Positions 7,167 to 63,950 of a stretch of DNA of 64,000 bases are shown here, piece after piece. The notes below the pieces were generated by a model. The model was given only the letters and a program-made list of their open reading frames with translations, ran no database searches and was not told the DNA's origin. Where the stretch lies: sequence record OR776998; one strand, written 5' to 3'. Positions within the stretch are counted from its first letter, which is position 1; each line of letters begins with the position of its first letter. A program made the translations under genes and the position numbers. Origin of the DNA: Escherichia phage YX22.

Positions 7167-7195
7167 GGTACAACCCTCGGATAGTAGACGGGGCA

Positions 7196-7221
7196 ATAAT
7201 ACCTCTCACCCCGTTATTGAA
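7196..7221 (-). promoter_or_regulatory. TTCAAT-N14-TATTAT promoter-like element
   Basis: The minus strand reads TTCAATAACGGGGTGAGAGGTATTAT and points at the 7166 start. Confidence 0.5.
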
Positions 7222-7456: not shown

Positions 7457-7482
7457 ATGATACCTTTCGCCCCGTTATTGAA
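7457..7482 (-). promoter_or_regulatory. TTCAAT-N14-TATCAT promoter-like element
   Basis: The minus strand reads TTCAATAACGGGGCGAAAGGTATCAT upstream of the 7427 start. Confidence 0.5.
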
Positions 7483-8988: not shown

Positions 8989-9014
8989 AGTATAACCTGT
9001 TCGATAATATGAAC
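8989..9014 (-). promoter_or_regulatory. variant promoter-like element GTTCAT-N14-TATACT
   Basis: Sits between the capsid terminator and the endonuclease start. Confidence 0.3.
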
Positions 9015-33648: not shown

Positions 33649-33676
33649 TAACCCCGCCGAAGCGGGGTTTTGTTTA
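33643..33676. terminator. bidirectional terminator
   Basis: AACCCCGC-cgaa-GCGGGGTT with A- and T-tracts on either side. Confidence 0.7.
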
Positions 33677-36600: not shown

Positions 36601-36703
36601 AATAAACGACTTCGTCTTCTTTGACACCGAAATTTCGAGCGATAGATTGTTTGTTAACTTCTATGGAAGTGGAGCCGCGTGGTTGATTGAATTGAGAAAT
36701 CAT
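33677..36703 (-). CDS. endosialidase tailspike (endo-N-acylneuraminidase) with C-terminal intramolecular chaperone
   Basis: Long stretches match K1F endoNF as I remember it: HGVSRLHVSW..SGDDGQTW, GTRSDRLGSSLHRS, YLGSNPIVTSNGEKKTEPVVFDDAFLDAWGDVHYIMYQWLDAVQLKG, ..RKLERIEARLSALEQK. Confidence 0.9.
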   Translation of the reverse strand: MISQFNQPRGSTSIEVNKQSIARNFGVKEDEVVYFTAGIDLSGFKVIYDESTQRAYSLPSGIVSGTTAVSLNEQAILAHSAGSVDLGELAVSREEYVTLPGSFDTGATLNVKNELLTHVAGKYRWEGEFPKTVPAGSTPGSTGGTGTGAWVSVGDASLRSQLSDPDGATKYPDLQIARWRDTFDPRGWNAKGDGVTDDTSALNGVLNAAPVGQKINGNGKTYKVTSLPDISRFVNTRFVYERIPGQPLYYASEEFVQGELFKITDTPYYNAWPQDKAFVYDDVIYCPFMASDRHGVSRLHVSWVRSGDDGQTWTTPEWLTDLHPDYPTVNYHCMSMGVMRNRLFAMIETRTLASNALVTCELWDRPMSRNYHPTGGITKAANQPVAVITIPEHGLFAGDFVNFSNSGVTGVSGNMTVTSVIDRNTFTVTTPNQQAFDQNNSTSRWHMGTSFHESPWRKTSLGLIPMVTEVHSFTAINNDSFMMGYHQGDVAPREVGMLYFPDAFNNPGLYQKRRIPADYEPDAAEPCVKYFDGVLYVLTRGTRSDRLGSSLHRSHDLGMTWESLRFPNNVHHSTLPFAKVGNELIIFATERADNEWEANVPDQRYFTSYPRTFYTRVNLDTWNLDNTQWVNITDQIYQGGIVNSGVGVGSVVVKDSYIYYMFGGEDHLNPWTYGDNSAKDPFKSDGHPSDLYCYKMKIGPDNRVSRDFRYGAVPDRAVPVFFDTNGVRTVPAPMEFTGDLGLGHVTLRASTSNNIRSEMLLEGEYGFIGKSVPTNNPAGQRTIFCGGEGTSSSTGAQITLYGANNTASRRIVYNGAEHLFQTADVKPYNDNAIALGGPSNRFTTAYLGSNPIVTSNGEKKTEPVVFDDAFLDAWGDVHYIMYQWLDAVQLKGNEARIHFGVIAQQIRDVFIAHGLMDENSTDCRYAVLCYDKYPRMTDMVFSHNEIVEHTDEEGNVTTTEEPVFTEVVIHEEGEEWGVRPDGIFFAEAAYQRRKLERIEARLSALEQK
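36224..36703. repeat. shared RBP N-module, copy 2
   Basis: Same module as 30124-30603. Confidence 0.8.
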
Positions 36704-39839: not shown

Positions 39840-41030
39840 TTAGAAAGAAGCTACAATAGAATAATCGACCGAACAAGCAGTTGTTGTATTCGCATTAACA
39901 ACGGAAATTCTCAATTTACCGCCCACCACAGCCCCTGTGAACGTCACTGTACCGCTCGTACTTTTCTGAACCAACAACTCCGATTTGATCGTTCCGTCGC
40001 GAGTTATAGTTACTCGATATGTATCAACAACGTCACCTGTTCCCCATTGCGCGGTCACCAGTATTTGACAAAGGTTCACCAAATCAAAATCTGGAAGAGC
40101 CGTCGTCCCAGAAGCCGAAACCGTGTAAGAAGACAAATTCGTTTTGGTACGATAAACGGCGTTCCCTAAACTATTGTCGACAGAGGTCATCTTGGCATTA
40201 TACGTTGATACATTAACTTTATCACTGGAAAGAGAACTGATGCTGTTATCCAGAGATGTCATCTTCGTGTTGTACGTGCTGACCTCGACTTTATTACCCA
40301 GAGACGTATTGATATTGGAGATACTCAAATCCAACGATGCCATCTTAGTGTTGTAAGTCGATGTGTTGACTTTCCCGTTCAACGACGTGTTGATGCCATT
40401 AATCTGGGACTCTAGACTCAGCATATCTGCGTCATACGCTGTCGTTGTCACATATCCACCAAATCGGTTATCTGCAAACAACGCATCAAAAAATGCAGTC
40501 ATTGTCCAATAACGCGCTCCAGAATCTGTTTGTACTGGAATTGAAGTCGGCAGTGTTGATCCGGTATACGCAGACAATCTGGTGAAGTCCAAATTGAATT
40601 TGTAATATCCGGATGCCAACAACTCCCCAGCCAAACCAGAACCAGGTGGGGTAGTGTCTTCACTGACACCATGCTTTCTCAGCATGCTCAGGTTAACACC
40701 ATCTGTCGCTACCACAGGCTCATCCACGATAGACAGTTTCTTTCCAGCCGGAACAGTCAGGCCGCCGTTGGCTGTCAACAACGCAGCAAAAGTCTTGTTC
40801 CCGTTGATCGTTTGTTCACCACCGTCGGTGCGGATCACTTTGTTTTCCAGTGTGTCGTAGATATTATCCACAGAACGCTTCAGCTCGTATGTCAAATGAG
40901 CTGAAGGAGGGAACAACGGATCATCAACAGCGAAATCGTTGACAACATCAGTCTTGCTTATTTTATCGTCAACAGAAGAAAGGATTGCATCAATCTGCTG
41001 ACCTGTGTATCGACTCAGAAAATCGGCCAT
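39840..41030 (-). CDS. tail fibre protein
   Basis: Fibre-like N-terminus (..EQTINGNKTF..LTANGGLTVPAGKKLSI..) and VSTYNxKMxSLDxS repeats. Confidence 0.7.
   Translation of the reverse strand: MADFLSRYTGQQIDAILSSVDDKISKTDVVNDFAVDDPLFPPSAHLTYELKRSVDNIYDTLENKVIRTDGGEQTINGNKTFAALLTANGGLTVPAGKKLSIVDEPVVATDGVNLSMLRKHGVSEDTTPPGSGLAGELLASGYYKFNLDFTRLSAYTGSTLPTSIPVQTDSGARYWTMTAFFDALFADNRFGGYVTTTAYDADMLSLESQINGINTSLNGKVNTSTYNTKMASLDLSISNINTSLGNKVEVSTYNTKMTSLDNSISSLSSDKVNVSTYNAKMTSVDNSLGNAVYRTKTNLSSYTVSASGTTALPDFDLVNLCQILVTAQWGTGDVVDTYRVTITRDGTIKSELLVQKSTSGTVTFTGAVVGGKLRISVVNANTTTACSVDYSIVASF
40170..40400. repeat. three degenerate tandem repeats (~72-81 bp) inside the fibre gene
   Basis: Units begin near 40188, 40260 and 40341 (catcttNgNgttgtaNgt...). 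They encode V(N/E)xSTYN(T/A)KM(A/T)S(L/V)D. Confidence 0.6.
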
Positions 41031-41032
41031 TT

Positions 41033-41887
41033 TTAACTCCTTGAACTTTCTAGGAATACAGTAAACCCAGCAGGATGGAAATGCTGACGGAAGACGCGGT
41101 CAAACACACCTTCAAAATCAGATACGTTGCCAGGAACTCTTATCACATACGTGAATTCATCATAGTAGTAATCGTCACGCATTCCTGTCGCGCCGTCACA
41201 TTCAAAGTTGTCATCCAGGCCACCAATTGCTTCCTTGGGATAATACACACTCACTGGGCAACCAAAGTAAATCCAGAAGAACAATTCAATCGCTTTCTTC
41301 GTCCCGCGAATGCGATAAATGTGTTTAAGTAACTTCAACCAGCGTACATGGTCCAGTGTCCGGCGTTCAGTTCCCTCGACATACACAGAGAGTGTGTCTC
41401 CGTCTGAAGTCACCAAACTGTCCGAACCAACTGGCACAAACTTCCCGAACTCCAGGAAGGACTTATCAACCGTTCTCTGGAATCCAAAATCAGCATACCA
41501 ATCGTCGATGCGTTCGTTCTTGTCTTCCATTGAGATTAATGGTCGACCGTCCACGTCCAGCAAATCTTCGAAGTCTAGCGCCATCATGTTCTCAAACGTG
41601 CGCGTCAGGAACTTGTCTTCCAAGAAGTCTTTGGCCTCAGTACCTGGCGTCTTGCGCTTCTTGATGTCAATCAACTGCTCAATAGGAGACTGATCCGTAT
41701 TTGGGTTCACCCAACCACCAGTGTCTGCCAGATACGCCAAGATCTCCTCTTCGGTGAATCCCTGCTGGCGATACAACCAGTTGAAGAACGTATCCATAAA
41801 CTCGATGAATACTGGGAATTCATTCTGGTAAAACAATGGGGTTTCATATTTCACCCCATTGTGTCCGTTATTAAGATCTTTGGACAT
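41033..41887 (-). CDS. baseplate wedge protein (P2 gpI-like)
   Basis: Lies between the gpJ-like gene and the fibre gene. Contains an IYRIRGTKKAIELFFWIYFG-type motif. Confidence 0.55.
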   Translation of the reverse strand: MSKDLNNGHNGVKYETPLFYQNEFPVFIEFMDTFFNWLYRQQGFTEEEILAYLADTGGWVNPNTDQSPIEQLIDIKKRKTPGTEAKDFLEDKFLTRTFENMMALDFEDLLDVDGRPLISMEDKNERIDDWYADFGFQRTVDKSFLEFGKFVPVGSDSLVTSDGDTLSVYVEGTERRTLDHVRWLKLLKHIYRIRGTKKAIELFFWIYFGCPVSVYYPKEAIGGLDDNFECDGATGMRDDYYYDEFTYVIRVPGNVSDFEGVFDRVFRQHFHPAGFTVFLESSRS

Positions 41888-43649
41888 AACGCACCTCCGG
41901 CTCCACAGTTACAGCACCGATGCGGAGCACCTGATTCTGTGTGGCCTGAATGTTCTGGTCAAGACCGTCTGGAGACACAATTATTGTCACACCCTCAGTG
42001 TTGTAGTTGGATACTATGATACGCTGGAGTTCAACAACGCCAGTCGCATAATCAACCTTTCCAACAGCTTGTACCAGATATTCCTTGGTCGTGTCTGTTG
42101 TACTCACCTTGTACATATTCAGGACACCACTGACGTCGCGTATGTAGTAAGTGAATTCGACCTCGGCCGGAAGCGGCTTAAACCCACTGATACGCACAGA
42201 ACCAGACGCAATCGAGCGCCCATAATCGAACGTGAAGCTGTCCAGTACCCCATAGTCTGGCTTGAAATGGCGCTTATACTTCACAGAAGTGATGTTTGAC
42301 ACTATCGATCTGTCCATGTCGGTGATTGCCGACTGTAACTGCTCTTTATCGAACAGTTCGTCGAATCCTTCTAGATTCCCCAAGCCCCAGTTGACAACAC
42401 CGTTCTTCACGACTGTCTTCAACTGCTCTTCGGTATAGGACGTGGAAGTCGGATCCCAGAACACGCGGGTGATGACATCAACATAAGTCAGTTCAGCGTC
42501 GACAATCTTGGGTGTGATCGTGCCCACATTGTACTTGTCTAACGTCGCCACGATATCTGCCTTCTCAGCGTCCGAGAGCGCCTCACCAACAGAAGGTATC
42601 ACAGCAATGTAAACGTATCCGGAGTCGGGCGGAGAGAGCGTGTCGCCGCCATATGCTTTGGCGCGGGAGACGTTAGAGAACAGACGCTCGGTCAACACAG
42701 CATAATCGACTTCGGCCACTGCCGCACCCTCAGCCTGATAAGCCAGCGGAGCAAGACGCTTGATGTCCTCAATGCTCTCTGGGTCCTTACCACCGGAAGA
42801 ACGTTCTGACACCAGCTCAACATCTACAAGGTTGAATCCCCCGATGGAAGACGCGGAGGACAAGGCAGTGATGTCATTGCCGTCTGCACCAGCTGTCTCC
42901 AGATACTGGAGGTACACGATGTTCCCGTCTTCTACTCGCTTACAGATATACCCATCACCGAATTCGAACGTGTACATCCCGTCCAACCCCAGCTCAACGA
43001 AGTAGAGTTGCGCATACTGGCTCAAATCGAACGGGCTGACATATCGTGAGAAGGTAGACCGCACGTCAGATGTCTCAGATTCCTGCACCTGCACCACCAT
43101 ATGGTCGATGTCCACGGAAGAAGATGGGATCACATAGGTAGAGATCGCGCTGCCTTCCACATCATAGGACTTGTACAGCCAGTTACCCTGTATGAGTTTG
43201 ATGTTCTCGAACTTGTAAGAGCCGTCTACAAGAGAGGCACTCACAGGTTGGTCAACCGTGAAGTTATAGGATTTTCCATCCTTCACCCCAATGAACATCG
43301 CGCGGCGATCCATCACAATCGTGTCTGGAGCCGTGCTGGCGTCATATGGAGTGACTGTGACGTTTGCGTACAGGTACGCTGCCTGGTAGTTGTGAGGGGT
43401 GTAAGATAAGAACCCCGCCGCCAGACCGACATTAGAACGCTGTTGAGCAGAGTGAAGATGGCTTTCGCCATTCAACATGTTCTGCATGAACCCGATAGAG
43501 TTGGCATCCGAGGCCAAGATACGCACGATTGCACTGAGACCAGAACCTTCAAAGTCATAATCCTTGAAAGTTGGATCAGCTTTCATGCGCTTCTTGATAA
43601 GATACTCGAAAGCCCTGACATCGAGTGAAGGGACTGTTTGCGTGGCCAT
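41871..43649 (-). CDS. baseplate wedge protein (gpJ / T4 gp6-like)
   Basis: 593 aa from the ATG at 43649 (MATQTV) with a GGAGAT SD. It is the first gene behind a late motif. Confidence 0.55.
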   Translation of the reverse strand: MATQTVPSLDVRAFEYLIKKRMKADPTFKDYDFEGSGLSAIVRILASDANSIGFMQNMLNGESHLHSAQQRSNVGLAAGFLSYTPHNYQAAYLYANVTVTPYDASTAPDTIVMDRRAMFIGVKDGKSYNFTVDQPVSASLVDGSYKFENIKLIQGNWLYKSYDVEGSAISTYVIPSSSVDIDHMVVQVQESETSDVRSTFSRYVSPFDLSQYAQLYFVELGLDGMYTFEFGDGYICKRVEDGNIVYLQYLETAGADGNDITALSSASSIGGFNLVDVELVSERSSGGKDPESIEDIKRLAPLAYQAEGAAVAEVDYAVLTERLFSNVSRAKAYGGDTLSPPDSGYVYIAVIPSVGEALSDAEKADIVATLDKYNVGTITPKIVDAELTYVDVITRVFWDPTSTSYTEEQLKTVVKNGVVNWGLGNLEGFDELFDKEQLQSAITDMDRSIVSNITSVKYKRHFKPDYGVLDSFTFDYGRSIASGSVRISGFKPLPAEVEFTYYIRDVSGVLNMYKVSTTDTTKEYLVQAVGKVDYATGVVELQRIIVSNYNTEGVTIIVSPDGLDQNIQATQNQVLRIGAVTVEPEVRYVQRS

Positions 43650-43688
43650 GATAATCTCCATCACCTGAGTTTGAATATGGTGTTGAAG

Positions 43689-43695
43689 ATATTTA
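43689..43695 (-). promoter_or_regulatory. late-promoter-like core CTAAATAtc
   Basis: 40 nt upstream of the 43649 ATG. Confidence 0.5.
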
Positions 43696-43708
43696 GCCAA
43701 CGGGAATC

Positions 43709-43726
43709 AAAACGCTCGCGCGCGTT
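43709..43726. terminator. stem-loop at the divergence point
   Basis: AAACGC-tcgcgc-GCGTTT. A TTTTG run follows on the minus strand. Confidence 0.3.
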
Positions 43727-43951
43727 TAATTTATTCGAATATAACTCGCAAGGGGGCTGACGCCCTCGCTCGTAACACCGCCCTATGCGGGCAGCACCAT
43801 TCCACAGCCATGGAGGCTGCTTCTCGTTGTTCGTTAACACTCACAACTCGAAGGGCACTGCGTTAGGATACAGTTTCTTGATGTTGTAGAAAAGTAGTTT
43901 TTGCCTATTAATAATCACTGTCATTGTTTTATTGGCCATTCCTGTGTTTAT

Positions 43952-43977
43952 ATTCAATAAACATACTCCCAATATAA
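43952..43977 (+). promoter_or_regulatory. TTCAAT-N14-TATAAT promoter-like element
   Basis: TTCAATAAACATACTCCCAATATAAT, 38 nt before the 44015 ATG. Confidence 0.6.
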
Positions 43978-44014
43978 TAACGGAGACATTTAATCAATCC
44001 AGTGAGGCTCCGGA

Positions 44015-44584
44015 ATGCACATTAACACAGCAATCATGAAACACATTATTCCTTTGTTAGCAAAATACGAAGGGGAACGCGCCACGAAAATCCCTTTTGG
44101 AACAATCACCGATGAAGTGAAACGCCTGACAGGTAAAAGTATCAATTTCCGTCGCGTTATTGAATCTGCGTTAGAGTTGGCCCGTTCTGATTTACGAAAT
44201 CCAACATTTTCATTTAATATTGACATAACTTCTTCACTTCGACAAGAAATGGAAGAATCATCACAAGCGCGGCGCAATCGTTTCCGTCATTTATATGTTC
44301 GTAACGAATTCTCTGAAGGTCGTGTTGGTATGAAACTGGAGTCTATTCGTTCTGACATTTGCTTCACTGTCAACTATGTTTTAGAGCCAGAAAGCGGGCG
44401 CATTTATTTTGGTGCGATTATCGGTTTCTATGGGAACTCTATTAATGGTTGGGCAGAACGTGTTGGATTAAAAGAAACCCAGAACACTCATTCCACACCT
44501 TCTACCCATTATATGACGCATGAAGCTGCTGGCGAATATGTTTACCTTCTGCGTCGTATTGTGAAGTTAGAAGTGTTAAAATAA
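44015..44584 (+). CDS. hypothetical protein, first gene of the RNA/tRNA unit
   Basis: 189-aa ORF. No motif recognised. Confidence 0.6.
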   Translation: MHINTAIMKHIIPLLAKYEGERATKIPFGTITDEVKRLTGKSINFRRVIESALELARSDLRNPTFSFNIDITSSLRQEMEESSQARRNRFRHLYVRNEFSEGRVGMKLESIRSDICFTVNYVLEPESGRIYFGAIIGFYGNSINGWAERVGLKETQNTHSTPSTHYMTHEAAGEYVYLLRRIVKLEVLK

Positions 44585-44591
44585 CGCTTTA

Positions 44592-44615
44592 TTCAATAAA
44601 GAATTGCAGTAAAGT
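44592..44615 (+). promoter_or_regulatory. weak TTCAAT-N12-TAAAGT element
   Basis: The box is perfect, but the spacing and the -10 element are off-consensus. Confidence 0.25.
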
Positions 44616-44641
44616 TAGTTGCATGGAAGGGAGGGAACACT

Positions 44642-44788
44642 ATGTTTTACATGATGTTACTCCTCATCCTCCTGATCGGGATTACCTTTACTCTCCTGGG
44701 TCTACCCGATCAGTCTGGTAAACAGACGCCCACTTCGGCGCATCCGGTTTTGAGTGAAGGTTCGTCCGCACTGCTGTGGGCAGTGTAG
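44642..44788 (+). CDS. small membrane peptide (48 aa)
   Basis: Below the ORF-track cutoff. Strong GGGAGGG SD. MFYMMLLLILLIGITFTLLGL is a TM helix. Confidence 0.5.
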   Translation: MFYMMLLLILLIGITFTLLGLPDQSGKQTPTSAHPVLSEGSSALLWAV

Positions 44789-44989
44789 CTCAAAGAGGAG
44801 AGGATTTTTCAAATTAGCTGGGCTGTAGTAAAGTATTAAACACGAGGCGAATAGCGCGGTGGTAGTAGGGCTGGAACCCGAAACCAGGAAAGCCCAGTCT
44901 CAGGGCACCGTGACGAATAGAGGCGTAATATCAACCTCGCTGGTGTCGGTGGACGCACTGACCGTCGGAGAACGAAACCCCCTGTTGTA

Positions 44990-45079
44990 GCGTGATTAGC
45001 TCAGATGCTTGAGAGCGCCCCGTTGGCGAGTCGACACCAACATATAGGGGAGGACGGATCTGCCAGGTTCCATCACGCC
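44990..45079 (+). ncRNA. tRNA-like module (aberrant anticodon and T arms)
   Basis: Perfect 7-bp acceptor GCGTGAT/ATCACGC and a D arm TA-GCTC..GAGC. The anticodon arm is replaced by a 9-bp arm with a 10-nt loop. Confidence 0.35.
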
Positions 45080-45765
45080 GACAACATTATGAGTCTTCGT
45101 AGAGGGTTCATAATGTTGCGTCAAAGGGCAACACAGGCTCCTGTTGGTAGAATTAACTTGATTCATAGTTCCTGCTGATCTTCCCGGATTCGAAGGAGCA
45201 CCAACAGGCGAGGCCGGATGCGTAAGTTCCGGCAAAACGATGGTGGCACCCTCGCCAACAAAATAAAAGGTTTTATCAATAACGGGTTACAAAGTATAGT
45301 TAACCCACTGAACGGCAAGCTGTTTGAGTCCTGGTCACTCATAGCGTTGTGAACTAAGACAGGTACGTTTAGGACTCAAACAGGTTTTCGTTGTGCGTGA
45401 CTTTGCGGGTTTTTAGAAACTGACCAAGCAAATAAATGCTAATGATTCCGAAGTTCTGATGGCGGCGTAATAGCCTATAAGTCAGCGGGGTATTCCAGTT
45501 CCCTGTAACAGAATCTGGCGCATCGCGGCCCTGAGATGTGATTAATAAGTCAGGGCATACAATGACAATTCATTCACATGATAACTTGTCAGCAATCTGT
45601 GAAATTGTTTGTAGGCATACGAACAAGAGGTAATTCGAGGGAGAATCGGCTCCTACCGTGTAACAGACCAAGTGACGTACCACTAAACCGTCCCGGGCGG
45701 TCGAAATGTGGGGAGATGAGAGTGGTCCCCTGAAGTTATCAGTTGAATGAATTGTTAAATAAAAT

Positions 45766-45891
45766 GCCGTTACATCTGACTGTCCAAAGGGGATAATCTC
45801 CTGAGTAAGCAGAGGTGGGTTGCCTAAGTCAGATGGGATGTAAGGTCAACGCTGGCCGAACATTTGGGTTCGACTCCCTAAAACGGCACCA
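45766..45891 (+). ncRNA. 126-nt tRNA-like RNA ending in ACCA
   Basis: GCCGTT/AACGGC acceptor, GGGTTCGACTCCC T arm, and an encoded A-CCA. The core is expanded by a 9-bp helix (45773-81 with 45827-35). Confidence 0.4.
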
Positions 45892-46804
45892 CATCTTTGA
45901 GGATATTCTCACGAGTATCTTGAAAGATGTGAGCGAAGTCTTGCCATCAGCCCTGATCCCTGGCAGGTGAAGGGCACACAAATCGAAGTGCCTTGACAAT
46001 TTATCTTAAACCCAAAGGTTGATCTACAAATTGGGCGGCCAATCCGGTGGACGATAACAGCATATTGGGCCATACTGTTGAGTCAGGGCACTTCGATTTG
46101 TGAACTTGAGAGAGCATTGGGTGAAATAGACCATGCCTTGCAGATTGCGATGCCTACACATTCCGGACACTGGTGGGCACCAAGAAGAACTCAGTAGCAG
46201 ACGAGCCATCAGGGTTAGCTACCCGGCGCGGCGAGGACTGGGAGGCCGAACTAAGGGGAAACCCGAGACAGGCGTAGTATTCTCAAGTTCACAAAATGAA
46301 GAGCATTTAAAGAGTTCGATTCTCTTTCAGGCCATTCGTGGTGTGATGTGAGTCATGAATGTTCTTCATCTTTGGGTGATTTTATGTTGCCGGGCTATCA
46401 ACCCATGCTTGCTGGAGCAACCAGCGGCTCTGAATCAACCAGCCAGCCTCGTTTGGTCCGAGCGTTAGAGGACAAGTTGCTTCTACATAGAAGCTGCGAG
46501 TTTTAACATTTGGTTGCAACTTTGATGGCTCTGGATTTTATAAACCATGTCTATGGGTGACGCGGGATCTTTAGTACCAGAGCTATCAAAGTTGTGTCCA
46601 ACCCGATCTTGCAAGCCCGTATCCCTGTATGGTTAAGACTTGCAAGTGGAAAGCCCTGGAAAAATAAACGCCTGTGGCGAGGCTATGGTGCAAGCCAAAG
46701 ACCCACAGAAGCGCATGCCGTGAGGCGCACAAACAGGCATGCATGAACTGATCATGCACAAACGGGATAAAGGGTTGACAGTCCTTGGTTGGTCACAATA
46801 ATTT

Positions 46805-46881
46805 GGTCCTGTAGCTCAGTCGGTTAGAGCAGTGAACTCATAATTCATTGGTCGTTGGTTCAAATCCAACCAGGATCACCA
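46805..46881 (+). tRNA. tRNA with CAU anticodon (Met by anticodon; ileX-like, so possibly Ile2 reading AUA)
   Basis: Full cloverleaf: GGTCCTG/CAGGATC acceptor, GCTC..GAGC D arm, GTGAA-CTCATAA-TTCAT, GTTGG-TTCAAAT-CCAAC, encoded CCA. The variable loop TTGGTCG matches E. coli ileX. Confidence 0.9.
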
Positions 46882-47134
46882 TGTTAAGGGGTGTGAAACA
46901 TAACACTCCGACAAACACAGTAAGCGTTGCAGCCAGCTGTGTATAAAATGGGGATGACTCCGCATCGGAAACGATGCCCCAACTTCCAGAAATGGTCGGG
47001 CGCAAAGCCTGTAAAGTTCCAGGAGATCGAACCAGAAGGCACTGGTCGCCAGTTAACCAATCGGCGCTGAGAAGCGCGGGGAGTTGGGCTACGGCAGATC
47101 AAATGCTCAATCGGGTGTGAAGCCCGTCCAAATT

Positions 47135-47223
47135 GGAAGGTTGCCCGAGAGGTTTAAGGGACTCGACTGCTAATCGAGTGGGGCTTTTAGCCCCCGAAGG
47201 TTCGAATCCTTCACCTTCCGCCA
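47135..47223 (+). tRNA. tRNA-Ser (GCU)
   Basis: Class II cloverleaf: GGAAGGT/ACCTTCC, CTCGA-CTGCTAA-TCGAG, long variable arm GGGGC-tttta-GCCCC, GAAGG-TTCGAAT-CCTTC, G-CCA. Confidence 0.9.
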
Positions 47224-47442
47224 AATTACGGGCGTGACTTCCTGAAGAGTTAGAAGATGTGCATGTCGACTCTCTCTCGTAATCGGGGTGTTTAGGAAGT
47301 TAAGAAAATCGCGGCGAGGATAGTGAAATGCAAATAGCTTTCTCTACGTCGACGACTTCAGGTTCGACTCCTGACGCGCTCTCCCATAGGGTAGTACCAG
47401 TGCAAGCGTGTAGTCTTTCAACCCATCCCATCGATGTGGTGT

Positions 47443-47471
47443 AGCCGGATATCCTATCCGGCTTTCTTTTT
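47443..47471 (+). terminator. rho-independent terminator ending the RNA/tRNA unit
   Basis: AGCCGGATA-tcc-TATCCGGCT followed by TTCTTTTT. Confidence 0.75.
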
Positions 47472-47528
47472 ATCCCTGTCTTATTATCTTCTTATCGACC
47501 CAAGCATGTTCTCCTTTATCGTAGTTTG

Positions 47529-47555
47529 TTCAATGATACAAAGGGGGTTTAAAAT
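47529..47555 (+). promoter_or_regulatory. TTCAAT-N15-TAAAAT promoter-like element
   Basis: Upstream of the 47597 gene. It overlaps the GGGGGTT/AACCCCC hairpin. Confidence 0.4.
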
Positions 47556-47596
47556 TTAACCGTTAACCCCCCTATCATAGATTTGAGGATACACTA

Positions 47597-48259
47597 ATGC
47601 GTAATGTTTCTATCTGGGAATTGAACGAAGTGATTTCCCATGACACCCCTCCAATTGTCAGACTCTTCCAATACAAGGGTGTCAAGCGCACTCTGAATGA
47701 GTTCCTGTCGCCTGTTTACGTCTACCGTGATGGCGGGTTCTTCCGCCGCGATAAAAACATCCCGAACCTTGGTATGACGTTTGATTTGAGTATCAAAGGC
47801 CAGGTTGTATTGATGGGTTATGGTAGCCTAGAACAATCTGAGAAAGGCCAGGGCGCTCCACTTATGGTCTTCGGTTCGTTTGAACAAGCCGTGCACTGGC
47901 TGATCAGAAACGGATATGATTTCTATGGCGAAGAAAGCGCCAATTGGCGTCGTCGCAAGGTCAAGTCTGTTAATCTGGTGGATTTGAATCTGATGTACCA
48001 GGCCATGGCTCGCGAGTACGAAAAGAATCTCGTCAAGCCTGTCGCCCAGGAGAACAATAACAATGTTGTTAACGACGCAACTGAGTCTTCTCATCATGAC
48101 GTGAACATCGTTCCAGCCTGTGAAACGAAAGCGCCGACACCGCCCACTCCTCCGGCCAGTCGTGTTCTGAATGATCAGGGCGCTCCGGTAAAACAAAAGG
48201 TCAAGAAGCCGACTTTCATGGAAAACATGATGAAGTTCCTTCGTCTGTTCAAGAAATAA
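47597..48259 (+). CDS. hypothetical protein
   Basis: 220-aa ORF with a GAGGA SD. Confidence 0.65.
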   Translation: MRNVSIWELNEVISHDTPPIVRLFQYKGVKRTLNEFLSPVYVYRDGGFFRRDKNIPNLGMTFDLSIKGQVVLMGYGSLEQSEKGQGAPLMVFGSFEQAVHWLIRNGYDFYGEESANWRRRKVKSVNLVDLNLMYQAMAREYEKNLVKPVAQENNNNVVNDATESSHHDVNIVPACETKAPTPPTPPASRVLNDQGAPVKQKVKKPTFMENMMKFLRLFKK

Positions 48260-48283
48260 GCCGAGATTCTCCTTTTCTATATT

Positions 48284-48319
48284 CCTGTAGATACGCTATG
48301 ATAAGCCAATGTCTACAGG
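48284..48319 (+). promoter_or_regulatory. hairpin overlapping the SD of the PLP-enzyme gene
   Basis: CCTGTAGA/TCTACAGG (8 bp). The 3' arm runs into the AGGAG SD, 10 nt before the ATG. Confidence 0.35.
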
Positions 48320-48328
48320 AGAAATAGA

Positions 48329-49522
48329 ATGAACAAGACCATCTTCGATATCCTTTCCCTCGACCGCAACCTGGTCCATTGGGAAGATTATCTCTACAAG
48401 CACACCCCGTGCGAACTTGTCGTCAACCCAGAAACCAACCAGCAGGTCTGGTTCAAGCGTGAAGATTATTTTGCGCCGCTGTCTAACTATGCCAACGCCA
48501 AGCAGGGCATCAATGGCAGCAAACTCCGCCAGGCCATCTGGTTGATGGTTGAGCACCTCAAGGCCGGAGGCTCCCCTGACATCATCCATGGTACTGTCGT
48601 TGGTAGTCCGCAGTCCCCTATGGCGACGGCAGTCTCTCGGCACTTCGGCGGCAAGACAACCACTGTACTCGGAGCGACCAAACCCACCACCTGTATGAAC
48701 CACGACATGGTGGCAATGTCAGCCTGGTTTGGTAGTGAGTTCAACTTCGTCGGCTCGGGTTACAACAGCACGATCCAGCCGCGCTGTAAGAAGTTGATCG
48801 AACAACAGAATCCAAAGGCGTATTATCTGGAATATGGTATCACCCTCGACCATACAGCGCATTCTCCTGAGCGCATCGCTGGCTTCCATATGCTGGGTGG
48901 CGAGCAGGTTGCCAACATCCCTGACCATATTACCGATCTGATTATCCCAGCCGGATCGTGCAACTCTTGCACAAGTATCCTGACCGGGCTGGCAATGCAT
49001 CCGAAGCCTAATCTGAAGCGTGTGTATCTGATTGGCATCGGTCCGAACCGCCTGGACTTTATCGAGAGCCGTCTGCGCATCATCGGCAAACATGCCAATC
49101 TGCCGCACATTGTCGACTTCACCCGTCGCTATCACGACAACCCAGACTATGTACACGGCAAGAAGGAGCTTCAGCATGCCTCTAAGAGCGTTTCGCTGGC
49201 TGGCCTCCTGAGTGGTATCAGACATAAGGAAGAGCCAGAGGTCGTGCTTCCTCGCTTTGAGGTACACCATTGGGATCTTCATACCACTAATTGGGTTCGT
49301 TACAATGACCTGATGGAATATCAGTGGGGTGATATTGAGTTGCACCCTCGCTATGAAGGCAAGGTCATGACCTGGATCCAGCAGAACAAGCCAGAGGTGC
49401 TCAATGAGAACACTCTGTTCTGGATTGTGGGTAGCAAGCCATACATCGATCCGATGAAGGCAGCATGCCCTGAGCTGGCTATCCCTGAAACAGTTCCTGT
49501 AAACGAATTCACCCCTTCCTGA
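48329..49522 (+). CDS. PLP-dependent enzyme, ACC deaminase / D-cysteine desulfhydrase family (fold type II)
   Basis: FKREDY...NGSKLRQ (PLP lysine), IPAGSCNSCTSILTG (phosphate loop) and HPRYEGKVM, compared with the family motifs KRED..GGNKxRKL, GSxxG and DPVYEGK. Confidence 0.7.
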   Translation: MNKTIFDILSLDRNLVHWEDYLYKHTPCELVVNPETNQQVWFKREDYFAPLSNYANAKQGINGSKLRQAIWLMVEHLKAGGSPDIIHGTVVGSPQSPMATAVSRHFGGKTTTVLGATKPTTCMNHDMVAMSAWFGSEFNFVGSGYNSTIQPRCKKLIEQQNPKAYYLEYGITLDHTAHSPERIAGFHMLGGEQVANIPDHITDLIIPAGSCNSCTSILTGLAMHPKPNLKRVYLIGIGPNRLDFIESRLRIIGKHANLPHIVDFTRRYHDNPDYVHGKKELQHASKSVSLAGLLSGIRHKEEPEVVLPRFEVHHWDLHTTNWVRYNDLMEYQWGDIELHPRYEGKVMTWIQQNKPEVLNENTLFWIVGSKPYIDPMKAACPELAIPETVPVNEFTPS

Positions 49523-49617
49523 CCCTCCTGAACACCCCATACAATCCGTGTGGGGTATCTATGAAAACCTTCCTCCAATATTTCCGAGAGGCGTCCTGTA
49601 CAAACCAGACCTGGCAC

Positions 49618-49624
49618 CTAAATA
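49618..49624 (+). promoter_or_regulatory. late-promoter-like core CTAAATAccccc (plus strand)
   Basis: 34 nt upstream of the 49658 ATG. It is the only plus-strand member. Confidence 0.5.
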
Positions 49625-49657
49625 CCCCCATATGGCTAACCCACTGAGGAACCCAAC

Positions 49658-50116
49658 ATGCCAACCTCCAAATTGTTTGAATCAGAATACACCAATGACA
49701 TCCCTGTATGGACTGGTGTTCAAGACGGTATCACGATTGAGCTGTTTGATCGTGAAGAGACAGGCGCGGAAGAGATCTATGCAGGCGTTGAAGGCACTGA
49801 TGTTGTCCGCGCCGCCGTAGCACTTGCCACCTTCCTGGAAGATGCACCGATTGATGGCGTGCCGTTCGAGGCGCACGTAGATCCTAAGGATCCGACCTCT
49901 ATCATCATTACAGTGAATGGGGTGCCATACACTTCGTACAGCATCGAGACGGACGAAGAGGGCAGCGGAGCGCTGTATATTGCCACCGACCTGCAGCTGG
50001 AAGACGATGAGATGGATTATCTGATTCAGAACGGGGTGCTGCCACCGTTTACCGATGAAGAACTGGACACGGAACTGGCTGCTGTCGGGGACGACGAAGA
50101 CTTCTGGGAAGAATAA
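49658..50116 (+). CDS. acidic hypothetical protein
   Basis: 152-aa ORF with a GAGGA SD. Confidence 0.6.
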   Translation: MPTSKLFESEYTNDIPVWTGVQDGITIELFDREETGAEEIYAGVEGTDVVRAAVALATFLEDAPIDGVPFEAHVDPKDPTSIIITVNGVPYTSYSIETDEEGSGALYIATDLQLEDDEMDYLIQNGVLPPFTDEELDTELAAVGDDEDFWEE

Positions 50117-50141: not shown

Positions 50142-50693
50142 TCATTTCACCTTGCGAGTTGGATATTGGTTAAAGAGTTTGCCCAGCTTAGACACGTTGA
50201 TGATCGTCTGGGTCTTCCAGCGCTGGATCCCTTCCGGGGTAGTCACGGTCAGGATTGAATGCCCCCAAATGTGAGAACCGTCCAGCACAGCCGCGCTGTG
50301 GCTACCAATCTTGTCTTCCAGTTTGCAAATGAAAGATTCATACTGATGGGCAGCGTTGCAACGGGCTTCTTTGATGAACAGACGCTGGCGCTCTGGATCA
50401 GACTTGACGATGTTAGGCGCACCCACTTGATAAGAGCGGTTCGGCGGGTTATTGTCGGCGGTCAGGCTCATATACAAAGACTGCTTTGCCTTCATGTGTT
50501 GGTAATCGTGGTGATCCATTCTGATGCCAACAGTTGATGGCCAAGGAGCGCACTTCTGAATATCCCAGCCGTTGGCGGCTAGATCGTCCATCACGTTCTT
50601 GATGATTTTGTTCGCGTACTGCTCGGCAGCTTCTTCGGCTTGCGACAACAGAGGCTCAACAGCGATACGGACAGCAGTTTTTGGTATTGTCAT
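50142..50693 (-). CDS. hypothetical protein
   Basis: ATG at 50693 (MTIPKT) with a GAAGGG SD. Confidence 0.6.
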   Translation of the reverse strand: MTIPKTAVRIAVEPLLSQAEEAAEQYANKIIKNVMDDLAANGWDIQKCAPWPSTVGIRMDHHDYQHMKAKQSLYMSLTADNNPPNRSYQVGAPNIVKSDPERQRLFIKEARCNAAHQYESFICKLEDKIGSHSAAVLDGSHIWGHSILTVTTPEGIQRWKTQTIINVSKLGKLFNQYPTRKVK

Positions 50694-50739
50694 GATATAG
50701 CCCTTCAGTTCAAAGTAAGCCCCCGGAGGGGCTTTGTAA

Positions 50740-51048
50740 TTAGACAAAGATGAATTTAGAATCTTTGAATGTCAAGCGGGAGCAAACTTCTTCAACCGCG
50801 TCAACCACCATAAAATCGTTGAATGCTTTGTGTAGGGCTTTCAGGAAGGAAGCCGGAACCAGCCCACACGCTGGGTTGTCAAACAAAGCCGAAGAGACGA
50901 CAGAGTTGAAAGTTGAGTCTGGAGTACAAGACTGGGCAATCATAAGCGCTTCTGCGTTTCTCACTGCGTGGAACTTAAAGGTAGCAACAACGGTTTCTTT
51001 GTTATATTTAGCCAGTTGTGCTTCAAATTGTTCTTTTGTGATTGCCAT
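50740..51048 (-). CDS. hypothetical protein
   Basis: ATG at 51048 (MAITKEQ) with an AAGGA SD. Confidence 0.55.
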   Translation of the reverse strand: MAITKEQFEAQLAKYNKETVVATFKFHAVRNAEALMIAQSCTPDSTFNSVVSSALFDNPACGLVPASFLKALHKAFNDFMVVDAVEEVCSRLTFKDSKFIFV

Positions 51049-51091: not shown

Positions 51092-51117
51092 ATTAGAAGT
51101 ATACGCCAGTTATTGAA
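51092..51117 (-). promoter_or_regulatory. TTCAAT-N14-TCTAAT promoter-like element
   Basis: The minus strand reads TTCAATAACTGGCGTATACTTCTAAT upstream of the 51048 start. Confidence 0.4.
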
Positions 51118-51143
51118 GAAGTAAACTTTATTCAATAAATATT

Positions 51144-55050: not shown

Positions 55051-55076
55051 TTCAATAAACCAAAGGGGGATATAAT
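55051..55076 (+). promoter_or_regulatory. TTCAAT-N14-TATAAT promoter-like element
   Basis: TTCAATAAACCAAAGGGGGATATAAT directly after the polymerase stop. Confidence 0.55.
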
Positions 55077-55112
55077 TCCCCCTGTTAACCCTTTGACAAA
55101 CAGGTGATTGAA

Positions 55113-60159: not shown

Positions 60160-60185
60160 TTCAATAAAGGGGAATGGGTTATTAT
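60160..60185 (+). promoter_or_regulatory. TTCAAT-N14-TATTAT promoter-like element
   Basis: The -10 element sits in the loop of the terminator hairpin. Confidence 0.4.
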
Positions 60186-60207
60186 TAGCCCGTTCCCCTT
60201 TCTTTTT
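60169..60207 (+). terminator. rho-independent terminator
   Basis: GGGGAATGGG/CCCGTTCCCC (10 bp, one G.U) followed by TTTCTTTTT. Confidence 0.7.
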
Positions 60208-60308
60208 GCAAGAATATACATCATGGCAATGCAACGAATTGAAGATATGTCTCTACTCAACATGGAAGCGACTTTTGGCGCTTCCGTTATCGTCATGGGA
60301 GAATCCAA

Positions 60309-62648: not shown

Positions 62649-62674
62649 TTCAATAAAAGGGGATAGGGTATTAT
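62649..62674 (+). promoter_or_regulatory. TTCAAT-N14-TATTAT promoter-like element
   Basis: TTCAATAAAAGGGGATAGGGTATTAT. Confidence 0.4.
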
Positions 62675-62690
62675 TGCTCTATCCCCTTTT
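62659..62690 (+). terminator. rho-independent terminator
   Basis: GGGGATAG...CTATCCCC followed by TTTT. Confidence 0.6.
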
Positions 62691-62753
62691 CATGGACAGG
62701 AACATGACAGACAAGCCAAGAAAGATGAAGAACAAACGCCGGAGCAAACGCTG

Positions 62754-63902: not shown

Positions 63903-63925
63903 AAGCCCTCAGTCGAGGGCTTTTT
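63903..63925 (+). terminator. rho-independent terminator
   Basis: AAGCCCTC-agtc-GAGGGCTT followed by TTT. Confidence 0.7.
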
Positions 63926-63950
63926 CAATTGAAGACACCCACCGTATTAT
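63924..63950 (+). promoter_or_regulatory. TTCAAT-N15-TATTAT promoter-like element
   Basis: Directly after the terminator, pointing out of the window. Confidence 0.35.

What the first reader, a model, noticed from the sequence alone, without database searches (positions are those of the whole stretch)
43952..43977. Recurrent TTCAAT-N14/15-TA(T/A)(T/A)AT element: a non-sigma70-spaced promoter class
**Instances.** I found the same bipartite motif at least 10 times.
- Plus strand: 43952, 47529, 55051, 60160, 62649, 63924.
- Minus strand: 7221, 7482, 15662, 51117.
- Weaker variants: 44592 and 9014.

Each copy is intergenic and points at the next gene.

**Architecture.**
- Two copies have a perfect TATAAT.
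- The 14-nt gap is too short for a sigma70 -35 element.
- It resembles the activator-box layout of T4 middle promoters, where a MotA box sits about 12 nt from the -10 element.

**Other observations.**
- Several copies overlap terminator hairpins, giving terminator-promoter modules.
- Both free-standing endonuclease genes have one.
Basis: partly seen in the sequence, partly recalled or inferred. Interest (0 to 1): 0.6.

Follow-up and report, generated by a model that had tools for sequence, protein, structure and literature searches.

The report
Known Ackermannviridae promoter–terminator cassette motif
The repeated TTCAAT-14 bp-TATAAT element is real. It is the already published hallmark promoter motif of ViI-like (Ackermannviridae) phages, here usually fused to a terminator hairpin, and what reads its oddly placed upstream box is still unknown.

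Summary
The window comes from an Agtrevirus-like Ackermannviridae phage, about 97% identical to Escherichia phages PC3/PH4.

**Observation.** The motif is confirmed. There are 8 exact copies against 0.17 expected, and all lie in the 8% of the window that is intergenic. Each points at the next gene, 28-41 nt upstream of a start codon. One listed copy, 51117(-), is instead an ordinary TTTACT-N16-TATACT promoter.

**Already published.** TTCAAT[N14]TATAAT is described as one of two "unique regulatory motifs" of this phage group.

**What I add.**
- The 14-bp spacing is a sharp preference, not 17 bp.
- A purine sits 7 nt after the -10 element, where a transcription start would be expected.
- In most copies the -10 lies in the loop of a G-run/C-run hairpin. 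The stems differ between copies and orthologues but stay paired.
- Copies mark cassette insertions and deletions between close relatives.

This matches the PeSL/PmSL promoter-terminator cassettes of T4-like phages.

**Upstream box.** It occupies the position of the T4 MotA box. A complete close relative has no MotA, AsiA or extra sigma factor detectable by sequence. The activator idea is therefore geometrically apt but unproven.

Interest is low to moderate.

The parts
43953..43978 (+). TTCAAT-N14-TATAAT copy. It lies in the divergent region between the late baseplate operon (-) and gene 44015-44584 (+). Only a weak 4-bp CTCC/GGAG stem surrounds the -10.
   Evidence: The -10 ends 36 nt before the ATG at 44015, and there is a G at the 7th nt after the -10.
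47529..47571 (+). TTCAAT-N15-TAAAAT copy (47529-47555). A GGGGGTT/AACCCCC hairpin (47543-47571) encloses the -10. The copy is upstream of gene 47597-48259.
   Evidence: (dG -15.3, z -4.5).
48275..48324 (+). Variant TTCTAT-N16-TATGAT (48275-48302). Its -10 lies inside a 12-bp CCTGTAGATA.../...TCTACAGG hairpin. It is upstream of the PALP-like gene 48329-49522.
   Evidence: (dG -22.2, z -7.4).
55051..55083 (+). TTCAAT-N14-TATAAT copy (55051-55076) that starts directly after the DNA polymerase stop codon. The -10 is the loop of the GGGGGA/TCCCCC hairpin (55064-55083). It is upstream of gene 55113-55454 and of the thymidine-modification genes.
   Evidence: The site is conserved after the DNA polymerase gene in 22 of 23 related loci and in Erwinia phage phiEa2809, with compensatory changes in the stem.
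60160..60210 (+). TTCAAT-N14-TATTAT copy (60160-60185). A 16-bp hairpin (60166-60201) is followed by CTTTTT, which makes it a full intrinsic-terminator shape with the -10 in and around the loop. It is upstream of a 29-aa ORF (60223-60312).
   Evidence: dG -26.5, z -6.9; top terminator-like hit.
62649..62693 (+). TTCAAT-N14-TATTAT copy (62649-62674). The structure is an A-tract, a 15-16 bp hairpin (62655-62690) and a TTTT tract. It is upstream of a 16-aa basic ORF (62704-62754) and gene 62754-63209.
   Evidence: (dG -26.7, z -7.1).
63905..63950 (+). TTCAAT-N15-TATTAT copy (63924-63950) with no hairpin around the -10. Instead a terminator hairpin, GCCCTC-agtc-GAGGGC (63905-63920), lies immediately upstream, and its T-tract runs into TTCAAT.
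7188..7221 (-). TTCAAT-N14-TATTAT copy (7221-7196). A CGGGG.../...CCCCG hairpin (7214-7188) encloses the -10. It is upstream of the 74-aa ORF ending at 6942.
7457..7482 (-). TTCAAT-N14-TATCAT copy directly after the homing-endonuclease stop codon and upstream of the 66-aa ORF 7427-7227. Together with the 7221 copy it flanks a 261-bp cassette that is absent from Salmonella phage vB_CECAV_050.
15614..15680 (-). TTCAAT-N14-TAAAAT copy (15662-15637), upstream of the free-standing homing-endonuclease gene 15608-14895 inside the late structural module. A TCTCTC/GAGAGA hairpin surrounds the -10, and a separate GCCCTC/GAGGGC terminator hairpin lies just upstream (15680-15665).
   Evidence: (z -3.0).
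51098..51125 (-). NOT a member of the class. This is TTTACT-N16-TATACT, a canonically spaced T4-early-like promoter.
44592..44615 (+). Weak variant TTCAAT-N12-TAAAGT, upstream of the small ORF 44642-44788.
8989..9014 (-). Weak variant gTTCAT-N14-TATACT, after a terminator hairpin and upstream of the homing-endonuclease gene 8963-7491. It can also be read as TTTGTT-N17-TATACT.

Best explanation
These are copies of the conserved TTCAAT[N14]TATAAT promoter of enterobacterial Ackermannviridae (ViI-like) phages. They are built as compact promoter-terminator cassettes of the PeSL/PmSL type.

**Shown**
- Each copy is a bipartite box, TTCAATA(A)-N12/14-TAtwAT, preceded by G at -15/-14.
- It is followed by a C-rich stretch with a purine at the 7th nt, then a Shine-Dalgarno sequence and a start codon.
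- In most copies a G-rich/C-rich hairpin encloses the -10 or lies directly upstream.
- The stems covary, and their G.U pairs lie on the sense strand.
- Copies sit at the borders of small gene cassettes that come and go between close relatives.

**Inferred mechanism**
- Transcripts arriving from upstream fold the hairpin and terminate or pause there.
- Host RNA polymerase with sigma70 binds the -10 and starts about 7 nt downstream, inside the 3' arm. The new transcript therefore lacks the 5' arm and is not terminated.
- The TTCAATA box lies at about -32 to -26. That is too close to the -10 for the normal sigma70 region 4/-35 contact.
- My best guess (about 0.45-0.5) is that the box is read by, or with the help of, an unidentified phage-encoded factor that replaces the -35 contact, functionally like T4 MotA/AsiA.
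- That would make this a delayed-early or middle class, distinct from the TTTACT-N16/17 early class and from the CTAAATAcC late class.
For: **Identity**
- The window is an Agtrevirus-like Ackermannviridae phage.
- The motif is listed verbatim as a regulatory motif of this group (PMC7283392).

**Promoter anatomy**
- There are 8 exact copies against 0.17 expected, all intergenic and co-oriented with the next gene.
- In the complete relative, 10 of 12 copies lie in the 6.9% of the genome that is intergenic, 29-41 nt (one at 82 nt) before the ATG.
- TTCAAT is among the top enriched hexamers upstream of genes: 27 against 4.7 expected.
- The spacing peaks at 14 bp.
- The logo shows a purine at the 7th nt after the -10 in 28 of 39 sites, against 2-11 of 39 at neighbouring positions.

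**Conservation**
- TTCAAT is invariant at the site after the DNA polymerase gene across genera, down to 63-64% polymerase identity.

**Hairpin**
- Copies fold with z-scores from -3 to -7.4.
- There are compensatory stem changes: GGGGGA/TCCCCC, GGGGGC/GCCCCC, GTGGGGC/GCCCCAC and GTGAGGC/GCCTCAC.
- 91.5% of cells are paired. Seven of 16 pairs show double changes. The covariation score is 0.369 against 0.199 shuffled (0 of 500 shuffles reach it), and all slid registers score lower.
- In a permutation test the mean stack is 6.6 against 4.2.
- Two copies have the full intrinsic-terminator shape.

**Cassette behaviour**
- A 261-bp motif-plus-ORF unit is flanked by two copies, and the relative carries a single chimeric copy.
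- Two further replacements begin at a promoter/5'UTR-ORF junction.

**Precedent**
[quoted passage not shown] PmSLs are the Mot-box version (PMC2839356; PMC4122927).

**Separate class**
- Nine TTTACT-N16/17 promoters coexist in the same genome.
- The late motif is spatially segregated.
- The box geometry equals that of the MotA box.
Against: - No transcription start, reporter or in vitro data exist for any of this. I found no Ackermannviridae transcriptome in the library.
- No MotA, AsiA, second sigma factor or other recognisable RNAP-directing factor appears in a complete close relative. This was tested by phmmer and by Pfam on 116 unknown ORFs. Kutter et al. reached the same conclusion (PMC3184105).
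- A weak TTnTTC hexamer sits at 17 bp (T at 31/39 and 24/39 sites), and G is frequent at -14. Direct recognition by unmodified sigma70 holoenzyme therefore cannot be excluded.
- Only 2 of the 9 window copies have a U-tract, so 'terminator' may mean attenuator or 3'-end stabiliser in the others.
- The covariation alignment was hand-picked from hairpin-bearing copies, and many sites are orthologues rather than independent observations.
Confidence: 0.6

Rival explanations
1. These are ordinary early promoters read directly by unmodified host sigma70 RNA polymerase. The -10 does most of the work, helped by G at -14/-15 and a weak TTnTTC -35 at 17 bp. TTCAATA is conserved for another reason, for example because it is part of the terminator's A/T flanks or serves as recombination homology.
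For: - The -10 is an excellent sigma70 element.
- The consensus scanner picks up TTGATT-N18-TATAAT at 55047 and TTTTCA-N17-TATTAT at 63922.
- T is enriched at the two positions that would be -35 and -34.
- The published descriptions treat the motif as a sigma70-like regulatory element (Adriaenssens et al. 2012, from my own knowledge).
- No activator gene was found.
Against: - The spacing peak is at 14 bp, not 16-18 bp.
- The overlapping 17-bp hexamer matches TTGACA at only 2 of 6 positions.
- No TGn extended -10 is present.
- TTCAAT itself is invariant across genera while the three bases before it vary.
- The genome keeps a separate, canonically spaced TTTACT-N16/17 class with AT-rich upstream regions.
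Confidence: 0.33
2. The element is primarily an RNA element, either a terminator or a 3'-end stabilising or processing hairpin with a conserved 5' flank. On this reading the -10-like loop sequence is incidental and no transcription starts here.
For: - The hairpins covary and carry sense-strand G.U pairs.
- Two copies are full intrinsic terminators.
- TTCAATAAA also precedes hairpins that have no -10 in the loop, for example upstream of two TTTACT promoters in the relative.
Against: - Copies with no enclosing hairpin (43953, 63924) keep the exact TTCAAT-N14/15 -10 arrangement.
- The loop is always a TAnnnT hexamer at a fixed distance from the box.
- There is a purine at +7 and a fixed distance to the Shine-Dalgarno sequence and ATG.
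- Copies stand at divergent junctions and ahead of inserted homing-endonuclease genes, which need their own promoter.
Confidence: 0.05
3. The promoters are read by an alternative host sigma factor or by the phage late sigma gp55.
For: The spacing is non-canonical. For example, sigma32 promoters have spacers of 13-15 bp (my own knowledge).
Against: - The -10 is TAtwAT preceded by G-runs. It is not CCCCATnT (sigma32), GCCGATAA (sigma28), or a C(-13) CTATACT (sigmaS) (compared with consensus sequences from my own knowledge).
- The gp55-type late motif CTAAATA(C/T)C forms a separate, spatially segregated set.
Confidence: 0.02

Closest known systems
Conserved 'TTCAAT[N14]TATAAT' regulatory motif of ViI-like phages (genus 'Viunalikevirus', now family Ackermannviridae)
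   Same: The sequence and spacing are identical and the phage family is the same. The EspM4VN paper lists it with CTAAATAcCcc as 'two unique regulatory motifs' (PMC7283392). Both motifs are present in the window.
   Different: Nothing differs for the motif itself. The held literature gives only the pattern and its positions. It does not mention the hairpin enclosing the -10, the cassette behaviour, or the question of what recognises the box. The presumed original description, Adriaenssens et al. 2012 Arch Virol (from my own knowledge), is not in the library and I could not read it.
PeSL / PmSL composite promoter-terminator cassettes of T4-like myoviruses (RB49/phi1, PST/T4, nt-1/KVP40)
   Same: - Both are an intergenic promoter plus a polyG-loop-polyC stem-loop placed upstream of, between the boxes of, or over the -10.
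- Both have G.T pairs in the stems.
- Both flank small ORFs of unknown function.
- Both lie at insertion/deletion borders, with chimeric copies in relatives.
   Different: - The phage family is different.
- The upstream box is TTCAAT at 14 bp. PeSLs have TTGACA or TTTACW at 17 bp, and PmSLs have TGCTT.
- Promoter and terminator activity and mini-circles were demonstrated for RB49/phi1, not here.
T4 middle promoters (MotA box plus sigma70 -10; sigma appropriation by MotA/AsiA)
   Same: - Both have a strong -10 and no usable -35.
- Both have a conserved box centred near -30 that ends about 12 bp from the -10.
- In the relative, copies precede nrdA, a gene 32-like SSB and gene 55, and copies also precede homing endonucleases. 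These are typical middle-type genes.
   Different: - The box sequence is unrelated (TTCAATA against TGCTTtA).
- No MotA or AsiA homologue is present.
- No experimental evidence of activator dependence exists.
T4-type early / canonical sigma70 promoters (TTTACW-N17-TAYWAT)
   Same: Both have a sigma70-type -10 and an intergenic position. This class is also present in the genome (window 51125-51098; 9 copies in the relative).
   Different: The TTCAAT class has 14-bp spacing, shorter leaders and no AT-rich upstream element.

Membership tests
Ackermannviridae TTCAAT[N14]TATAAT regulatory motif | The genome belongs to the ViI-like/Ackermannviridae phages. | tested here: met
   The window is 97% identical to Escherichia phages PC3/PH4. 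Its relative vB_CECAV_050 is classified as Ackermannviridae; Aglimvirinae; Agtrevirus.
Ackermannviridae TTCAAT[N14]TATAAT regulatory motif | The pattern TTCAAT, a 14-nt spacer and a TATAAT-like hexamer recurs in intergenic regions. | tested here: met
   There are 8 exact copies against 0.17 expected, all intergenic. The spacing peaks at 14 bp. The partner late motif CTAAATAYC occurs 10 times.
PeSL/PmSL promoter-terminator cassette | A stem-loop (G-run/C-run) is placed upstream of, between the boxes of, or over the -10 of the promoter. | tested here: met
   Seven of the 10 window copies have a hairpin enclosing the -10, and 2 have one immediately upstream. Covariation supports the structure.
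PeSL/PmSL promoter-terminator cassette | Copies flank small ORFs and coincide with insertions, deletions or replacements between close relatives, leaving chimeric copies. | tested here: met
   The cassette at 7222-7482 is flanked by two copies, and the relative has a single chimeric copy. Replacements at 60229-60309 and 50148-51040 start at a promoter/leader-ORF junction.
PeSL/PmSL promoter-terminator cassette | The promoter part is a sigma70 consensus (-35 at 17 bp) or a MotA-box promoter. | tested here: not met
   The box is TTCAAT at 14 bp. It is neither TTGACA/TTTACW at 17 bp nor TGCTT.
PeSL/PmSL promoter-terminator cassette | Promoter and terminator activity and mini-circle formation have been demonstrated. 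| not testable with these tools
   This needs reporter fusions and inverse PCR, as in PMC2839356.
T4 middle promoter (sigma appropriation) | There is a sigma70 -10 (TAnnnT) with a box centred at about -30, 12+/-1 bp from the -10, replacing the -35. | tested here: met
   TTCAATAA ends 12 bp before TAtwAT. The definition is from PMC2988021.
T4 middle promoter (sigma appropriation) | The box has the MotA box sequence (a/t)(a/t)(a/t)TGCTTtA. | tested here: not met
   The consensus is TnnTTCAATAAa.
T4 middle promoter (sigma appropriation) | The phage encodes MotA and AsiA. | tested here: not met
   - phmmer of T4 MotA and AsiA against all ORFs of the window and of the complete relative gave best E-values of 1.6 and 0.63.
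- Pfam on 116 unknown ORFs found no MotA_activ, MotCF, AsiA or Sigma70 family.
- Structural analogues are not excluded.
T4 middle promoter (sigma appropriation) | Transcription depends on the activator and appears after early transcription. | not testable with these tools
   No TSS or RNA-seq data were found for this family.
Canonical sigma70 -35/-10 promoter | There is a TTGACA-like hexamer 16-18 bp upstream of the -10, or a TGn extended -10. | tested here: not met
   Only TTnTTC (2 of 6 matches) lies at 17 bp. Positions -15/-14 are G/G, not T/G. Only 3 of 546 TTCAAT sites have a -10 at N17.
Intrinsic (Rho-independent) terminator | A GC-rich hairpin is followed by a U-tract. | tested here: inconclusive
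   The feature is met at 60166-60210 and 62655-62693. The other hairpins lack a clear T-run on the sense strand.

The most novel reading that the evidence does not exclude
Ackermannviridae replace the sigma70 -35 contact at a whole promoter class by using a factor unrelated in sequence to MotA/AsiA, either a new activator or a sigma-remodelling protein. This factor would read TTCAATA at -30. The class would be hard-wired into terminator hairpins, so that each cassette is transcriptionally insulated and switches on only after the factor is made. A still more exotic version is that the extruded hairpin presents the -10 as single-stranded DNA. The sense-strand G.U pairs argue against that version.
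Probability: 0.35. Interest if true: 0.7.

Novelty: already known. Interest (0 to 1): 0.3.

Why it matters
The motif is a published hallmark of ViI-like phages, so finding it again is routine annotation.

Two points are still worth something:

1. **Genome plasticity.** The same promoter-terminator cassette logic that drives modular gene shuffling in T4-like phages (PeSLs) appears to operate in a second family of therapeutic and biocontrol phages. This helps explain their small-gene plasticity. It also helps engineers, because each cassette is a natural insulated expression unit.

2. **An open mechanistic question.** How does a large class of promoters work with a conserved box at -30 and no MotA/AsiA? 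This is directly testable with in vitro transcription and 5'-end mapping. The answer could reveal a new way of redirecting host RNA polymerase.

Tried and rejected
**Literature**
- I tried to read the presumed original description (Adriaenssens et al. 2012, Arch Virol) by DOI, PMC id and PubMed id. It is not held. The prior-art claim therefore rests on PMC7283392 plus my own recollection.
- Literature searches for Ackermannviridae transcriptomes or TSS maps found nothing relevant.
- No held paper links PeSLs to this family.

**Sequence diversity**
- A second IMG/VR scan with a polymerase alignment added no new diversity.
- MAFFT did not keep the post-polymerase hairpins in register because the spacer varies from 13 to 16 nt. 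I used equal-length segments instead.

**Search for a factor**
- I looked for MotA/AsiA with phmmer and with Pfam, and found nothing.
- I followed a lead from Vibrio phage K483, which encodes a sigma70-family protein beside its DNA polymerase. The Agtrevirus genome has no homologue (best E-value 0.34), and K483 lacks the TTCAAT motif. The lead does not apply here.
- PHROGs gave 'unknown function' for all 19 window ORFs scanned, which include those downstream of the copies.
- The only ORFs in the window behind an early-type promoter (50142-51048) are themselves variable between close relatives, so they are poor candidates for an essential factor.

**Other**
- I considered host alternative sigma consensus sequences (sigma32, 28, 24, 38, 54) and rejected them on sequence.
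- I considered 45275(+) (ATCAAT-N14-TATAGT with a hairpin) as a further copy. It lies opposite a disrupted minus-strand gene, so I left it out.

Full report
**What the window is.** Megablast of 40000-50000 finds about 300 phage records. The best are Escherichia phages PC3 and PH4 (97.2% identity) and Salmonella phage vB_CECAV_050 (96%), which is classified as Ackermannviridae; Aglimvirinae; Agtrevirus. I transferred that record's annotation to the window. The layout is:
- 1-7500: replication and recombination genes and small ORFs, mostly on the minus strand.
- About 7500-43700 (-): the late structural module, with two free-standing homing-endonuclease genes (7491-8963 and 14895-15608).
- 43950-64000 (mostly +): small unknown ORFs, two tRNAs, DNA polymerase (52051-55050) and thymidine-modification genes.

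**Check of the observation.** TTCAAT-N13-16-TAWWAT occurs 8 times against 0.17 expected.
- All 8 copies lie in the 8.2% of the window that is intergenic. Shuffled intergenic sequence gives 0.054, with a maximum of 2 in 500 shuffles.
- 7482(-) is a ninth copy, with TATCAT as its -10.
- All copies point at the next ORF, and the -10 ends 28-41 nt before a start codon.
- The quoted coordinates are one base off. The element is 43953-43978.
- 51117(-) does not belong. Its TTCAAT is 8 nt from TATACT and sits in the spacer of TTTACT-N16-TATACT.
- 44592 (N12, TAAAGT) and 9014 (gTTCAT) are weak.
- So only one of the two endonuclease genes has a true copy.

**It is a genuine, family-wide element.** I rebuilt the complete genome of the 97%-identical relative.
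- It has 12 exact copies. Ten are fully intergenic, although intergenic DNA is only 6.9% of the genome. All are co-oriented with the next gene, and nine of the ten lie 29-41 nt from the ATG (the tenth is at 82 nt).
- An unbiased hexamer count in upstream regions ranks TTCAAT/TCAATA/CAATAA (27 against 4.7 expected, p about 1e-12) beside TATAAT and the late-promoter words TAAATA/CTAAAT.
- Over 546 distinct TTCAAT sites in the window, the relative and 23 IMG/VR loci, a good -10 lies 14 bp downstream in 39 sites. The counts are 10, 10 and 13 at 13, 15 and 16 bp, and only 3 at 17 bp.
- The logo is TnnTTCAATAAa...G(-15)G(-14)nTATwATt, followed by a C-rich stretch with a purine at the 7th nt in 28 of 39 sites. 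Neighbouring positions have a purine in only 2-11 of 39 sites. That is what a transcription start looks like.
- At the site immediately after the DNA polymerase stop codon, TTCAAT is invariant in 22 of 23 loci and in Erwinia phage phiEa2809, down to 63-64% polymerase identity.
- More distant genera carry 3-5 copies per 7.5-21 kb locus.
- A Vibrio phage with 49% polymerase identity lacks the motif.

- From my own knowledge, the pair of motifs comes from the 2012 proposal of the genus 'Viunalikevirus' (Adriaenssens et al., Arch Virol). I could not read that paper here.
- Earlier genome papers found only about 8 sigma70-like promoters. They stated that ViI-like phages have no MotA, AsiA, Alt or ModA, and that the early and middle promoters were unidentified (PMC3121705; PMC3184105).
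- The second motif is also in the window. CTAAATAYC occurs 10 times against 0.49 expected. Nine copies are on the minus strand, most of them just upstream of late structural genes.

The copies fold as follows:
- 60160 and 62649: A-tract, a 15-16 bp stem, TATTAT in and around the loop, then a T-tract (dG about -26.5; z -6.9 and -7.1).
- 55051: GGGGGA-TATAAT-TCCCCC.
- 47529: GGGGGTT...AACCCCC.
- 7221: CGGGG...CCCCG.
- 15662: TCTCTC...GAGAGA.
- 48275 (TTCTAT variant): 12 bp.
- 63924 and 15662 also have a terminator hairpin directly upstream, with its T-tract running into TTCAAT.

The stems differ in sequence but stay complementary.
- At the post-polymerase site they are GGGGGA/TCCCCC, GGGGGC/GCCCCC, GTGGGGC/GCCCCAC and GTGAGGC/GCCTCAC.
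- In an ungapped alignment of 11 copies, 91.5% of cells pair against 82.5% in shuffles. Seven of 16 pairs have double changes. The covariation score is 0.369 against 0.199 (0 of 500 shuffles reach it), and all slid registers score lower.
- Permuting the 3' flanks among sites lowers the mean stack from 6.6 to 4.2 bp.
- Wobble pairs are G.U on the sense strand: 25 cells against 4 A.C. That points to a structure used in sense-strand RNA, meaning transcripts that read in from upstream.
- Caveats: I chose the hairpin-bearing copies by eye, and many sites are orthologues rather than independent observations.

**Cassette behaviour.**
- The window carries a 261-bp unit, consisting of a motif copy plus a 66-aa ORF (7227-7427), that is absent from vB_CECAV_050.
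- The unit is bounded by the 7482 and 7221 copies. The relative's single copy combines a base typical of one copy with bases typical of the other.
- Two other differences, 60229-60309 and 50148-51040, begin a few bases into the first ORF behind a promoter.
- At the post-polymerase site, some relatives have a different gene behind the same motif, or an insertion in its place.

**Comparison with known systems.** This anatomy is that of the PeSL cassettes of T4-like phages.
[quoted passage not shown] They have G.T pairs, experimentally shown promoter and terminator activity, and a role in shuffling small ORFs. PmSLs are the Mot-box version (PMC2839356; PMC4122927).
- The difference is the upstream box: TTCAAT at 14 bp instead of TTGACA or TTTACW at 17 bp.
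- No held paper links PeSLs with Ackermannviridae.

**How it most likely works.**
- Shown: the promoter-like anatomy, the conserved hairpin and the cassette borders.
- Inferred: incoming transcripts fold the hairpin and stop or pause. RNA polymerase binds the -10 and starts inside the 3' arm, so the new RNA cannot form the hairpin. Each cassette is thus insulated from its neighbour.

The open step is recognition of TTCAATA at about -32 to -26.
- This is where the T4 MotA box sits, 12+/-1 bp from the -10 (PMC2988021).
- The same genome keeps a separate class of 9 canonical TTTACT-N16/17-TAtact promoters, several of them with AT-rich upstream regions and most with longer leaders. One of them is the window's 51125-51098.
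- In the relative, TTCAAT copies precede nrdA, a gene 32-like SSB (N12) and gene 55 (internal). Copies also follow the DNA polymerase gene and precede the inserted endonuclease gene.
- Two conserved architectures argue for two recognition modes, hence for a phage factor. I put this at about 0.45-0.5.
- Against it, T4 MotA and AsiA find nothing in any ORF of the window or of the complete relative (best E-values 1.6 and 0.63).
- A sigma70-family protein from Vibrio phage K483 has no homologue (E-value 0.34).
- Pfam on 116 unknown ORFs shows no MotA, AsiA or sigma family.
- A weak TTnTTC at 17 bp, together with G at -14, leaves direct recognition by host holoenzyme open, at about 0.33.

**Verdict.**
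- The 'non-sigma70-spaced promoter class' is real but already published for this phage family.
- The MotA analogy is correct for geometry and unsupported for membership.
- The added value is the PeSL-like promoter-terminator-cassette reading and a clear statement of the unanswered question.
- Novelty: already known. Interest: about 0.3.

Noticed in passing
window 1840, 5037, 17627, 21910, 28421, 33359, 36735, 39823, 43688 (-) and 49618 (+): The late-promoter motif CTAAATA(C/T)C occurs 10 times against 0.49 expected. Most copies lie just upstream of structural genes. This is the second published 'unique regulatory motif' of this family, presumably read by gp55/gp33.
   Followed up: partly
window 51098-51125 (-); 9 sites in PQ306799.1: There is a third, canonically spaced promoter class, (G)TTTACT-N16/17-TAtacT. 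It resembles the T4 early consensus TTTACW-N17-TAYWAT. Several copies have AT-rich upstream regions, and two share a repeated leader (TCATTCCATAAGCAG).
   Followed up: partly
window 62704-62754 and 60223-60312: Micro-ORFs follow two of the promoters directly. One is a 16-aa, very basic ORF (MTDKPRKMKNKRRSKR). The other is a 29-aa ORF. The stop codon of each overlaps the ATG of the next gene (TGATG / ATGA).
   Followed up: no
window 58701-59936, 48329-49522, 55451-56230: These are thymidine-hypermodification genes: an amino acid:DNA transferase (Pfam ADDT, E 4.5e-60), a PALP-like enzyme and an NT5C-like nucleotidase. A 5-hmdU DNA kinase is found elsewhere in the relative's genome.
   Followed up: no
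window 7491-8963 (-) and 14895-15608 (-): Two free-standing homing-endonuclease genes are inserted in the late structural module. Each is preceded by a terminator hairpin and its own promoter-like element. They are only 84% and 78% identical to those of vB_CECAV_050, while the flanking genes are 94-99% identical.
   Followed up: partly
window 28690-36703 (-): The tail-spike/tail-protein module is largely unrelated to that of the 97%-identical relative. Only the N-terminal parts match. This is the known swapping of receptor-binding modules.
   Followed up: no
window 46805-47223: The window has only two tRNA genes (Met-CAT, Ser-GCT), where vB_CECAV_050 has five. A near-consensus TTGACA-N16-AATAAT lies at 46775-46802, ending 3 nt before tRNA-Met.
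   Followed up: no
L054 (Vibrio phage K483) 2301-4103: A distant relative (49% polymerase identity) encodes a 600-aa sigma70-family protein (Pfam regions 2 and 4) next to its DNA polymerase. It lacks the TTCAAT motif. The enterobacterial Ackermannviridae have no homologue of this protein.
   Followed up: yes
PQ306799.1 76672-77175 (outside the window): This gene is annotated as 'RNA polymerase ADP-ribosylase'. It matches only a C-terminal slice of a 1480-position PHROG profile (E 1e-12) and has no Pfam hit, so the annotation is doubtful. It is preceded by a TTCTAT-N14-TATGAT hairpin element.
   Followed up: partly
window 6160-6209 (-): Two TTCAATAAA repeats flank a CGGGG...CCCCG hairpin, followed by TATACT (TTTAAT-N16-TATACT). 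The gene behind it is a truncated remnant of a 282-nt gene that is present in the relative.
   Followed up: no
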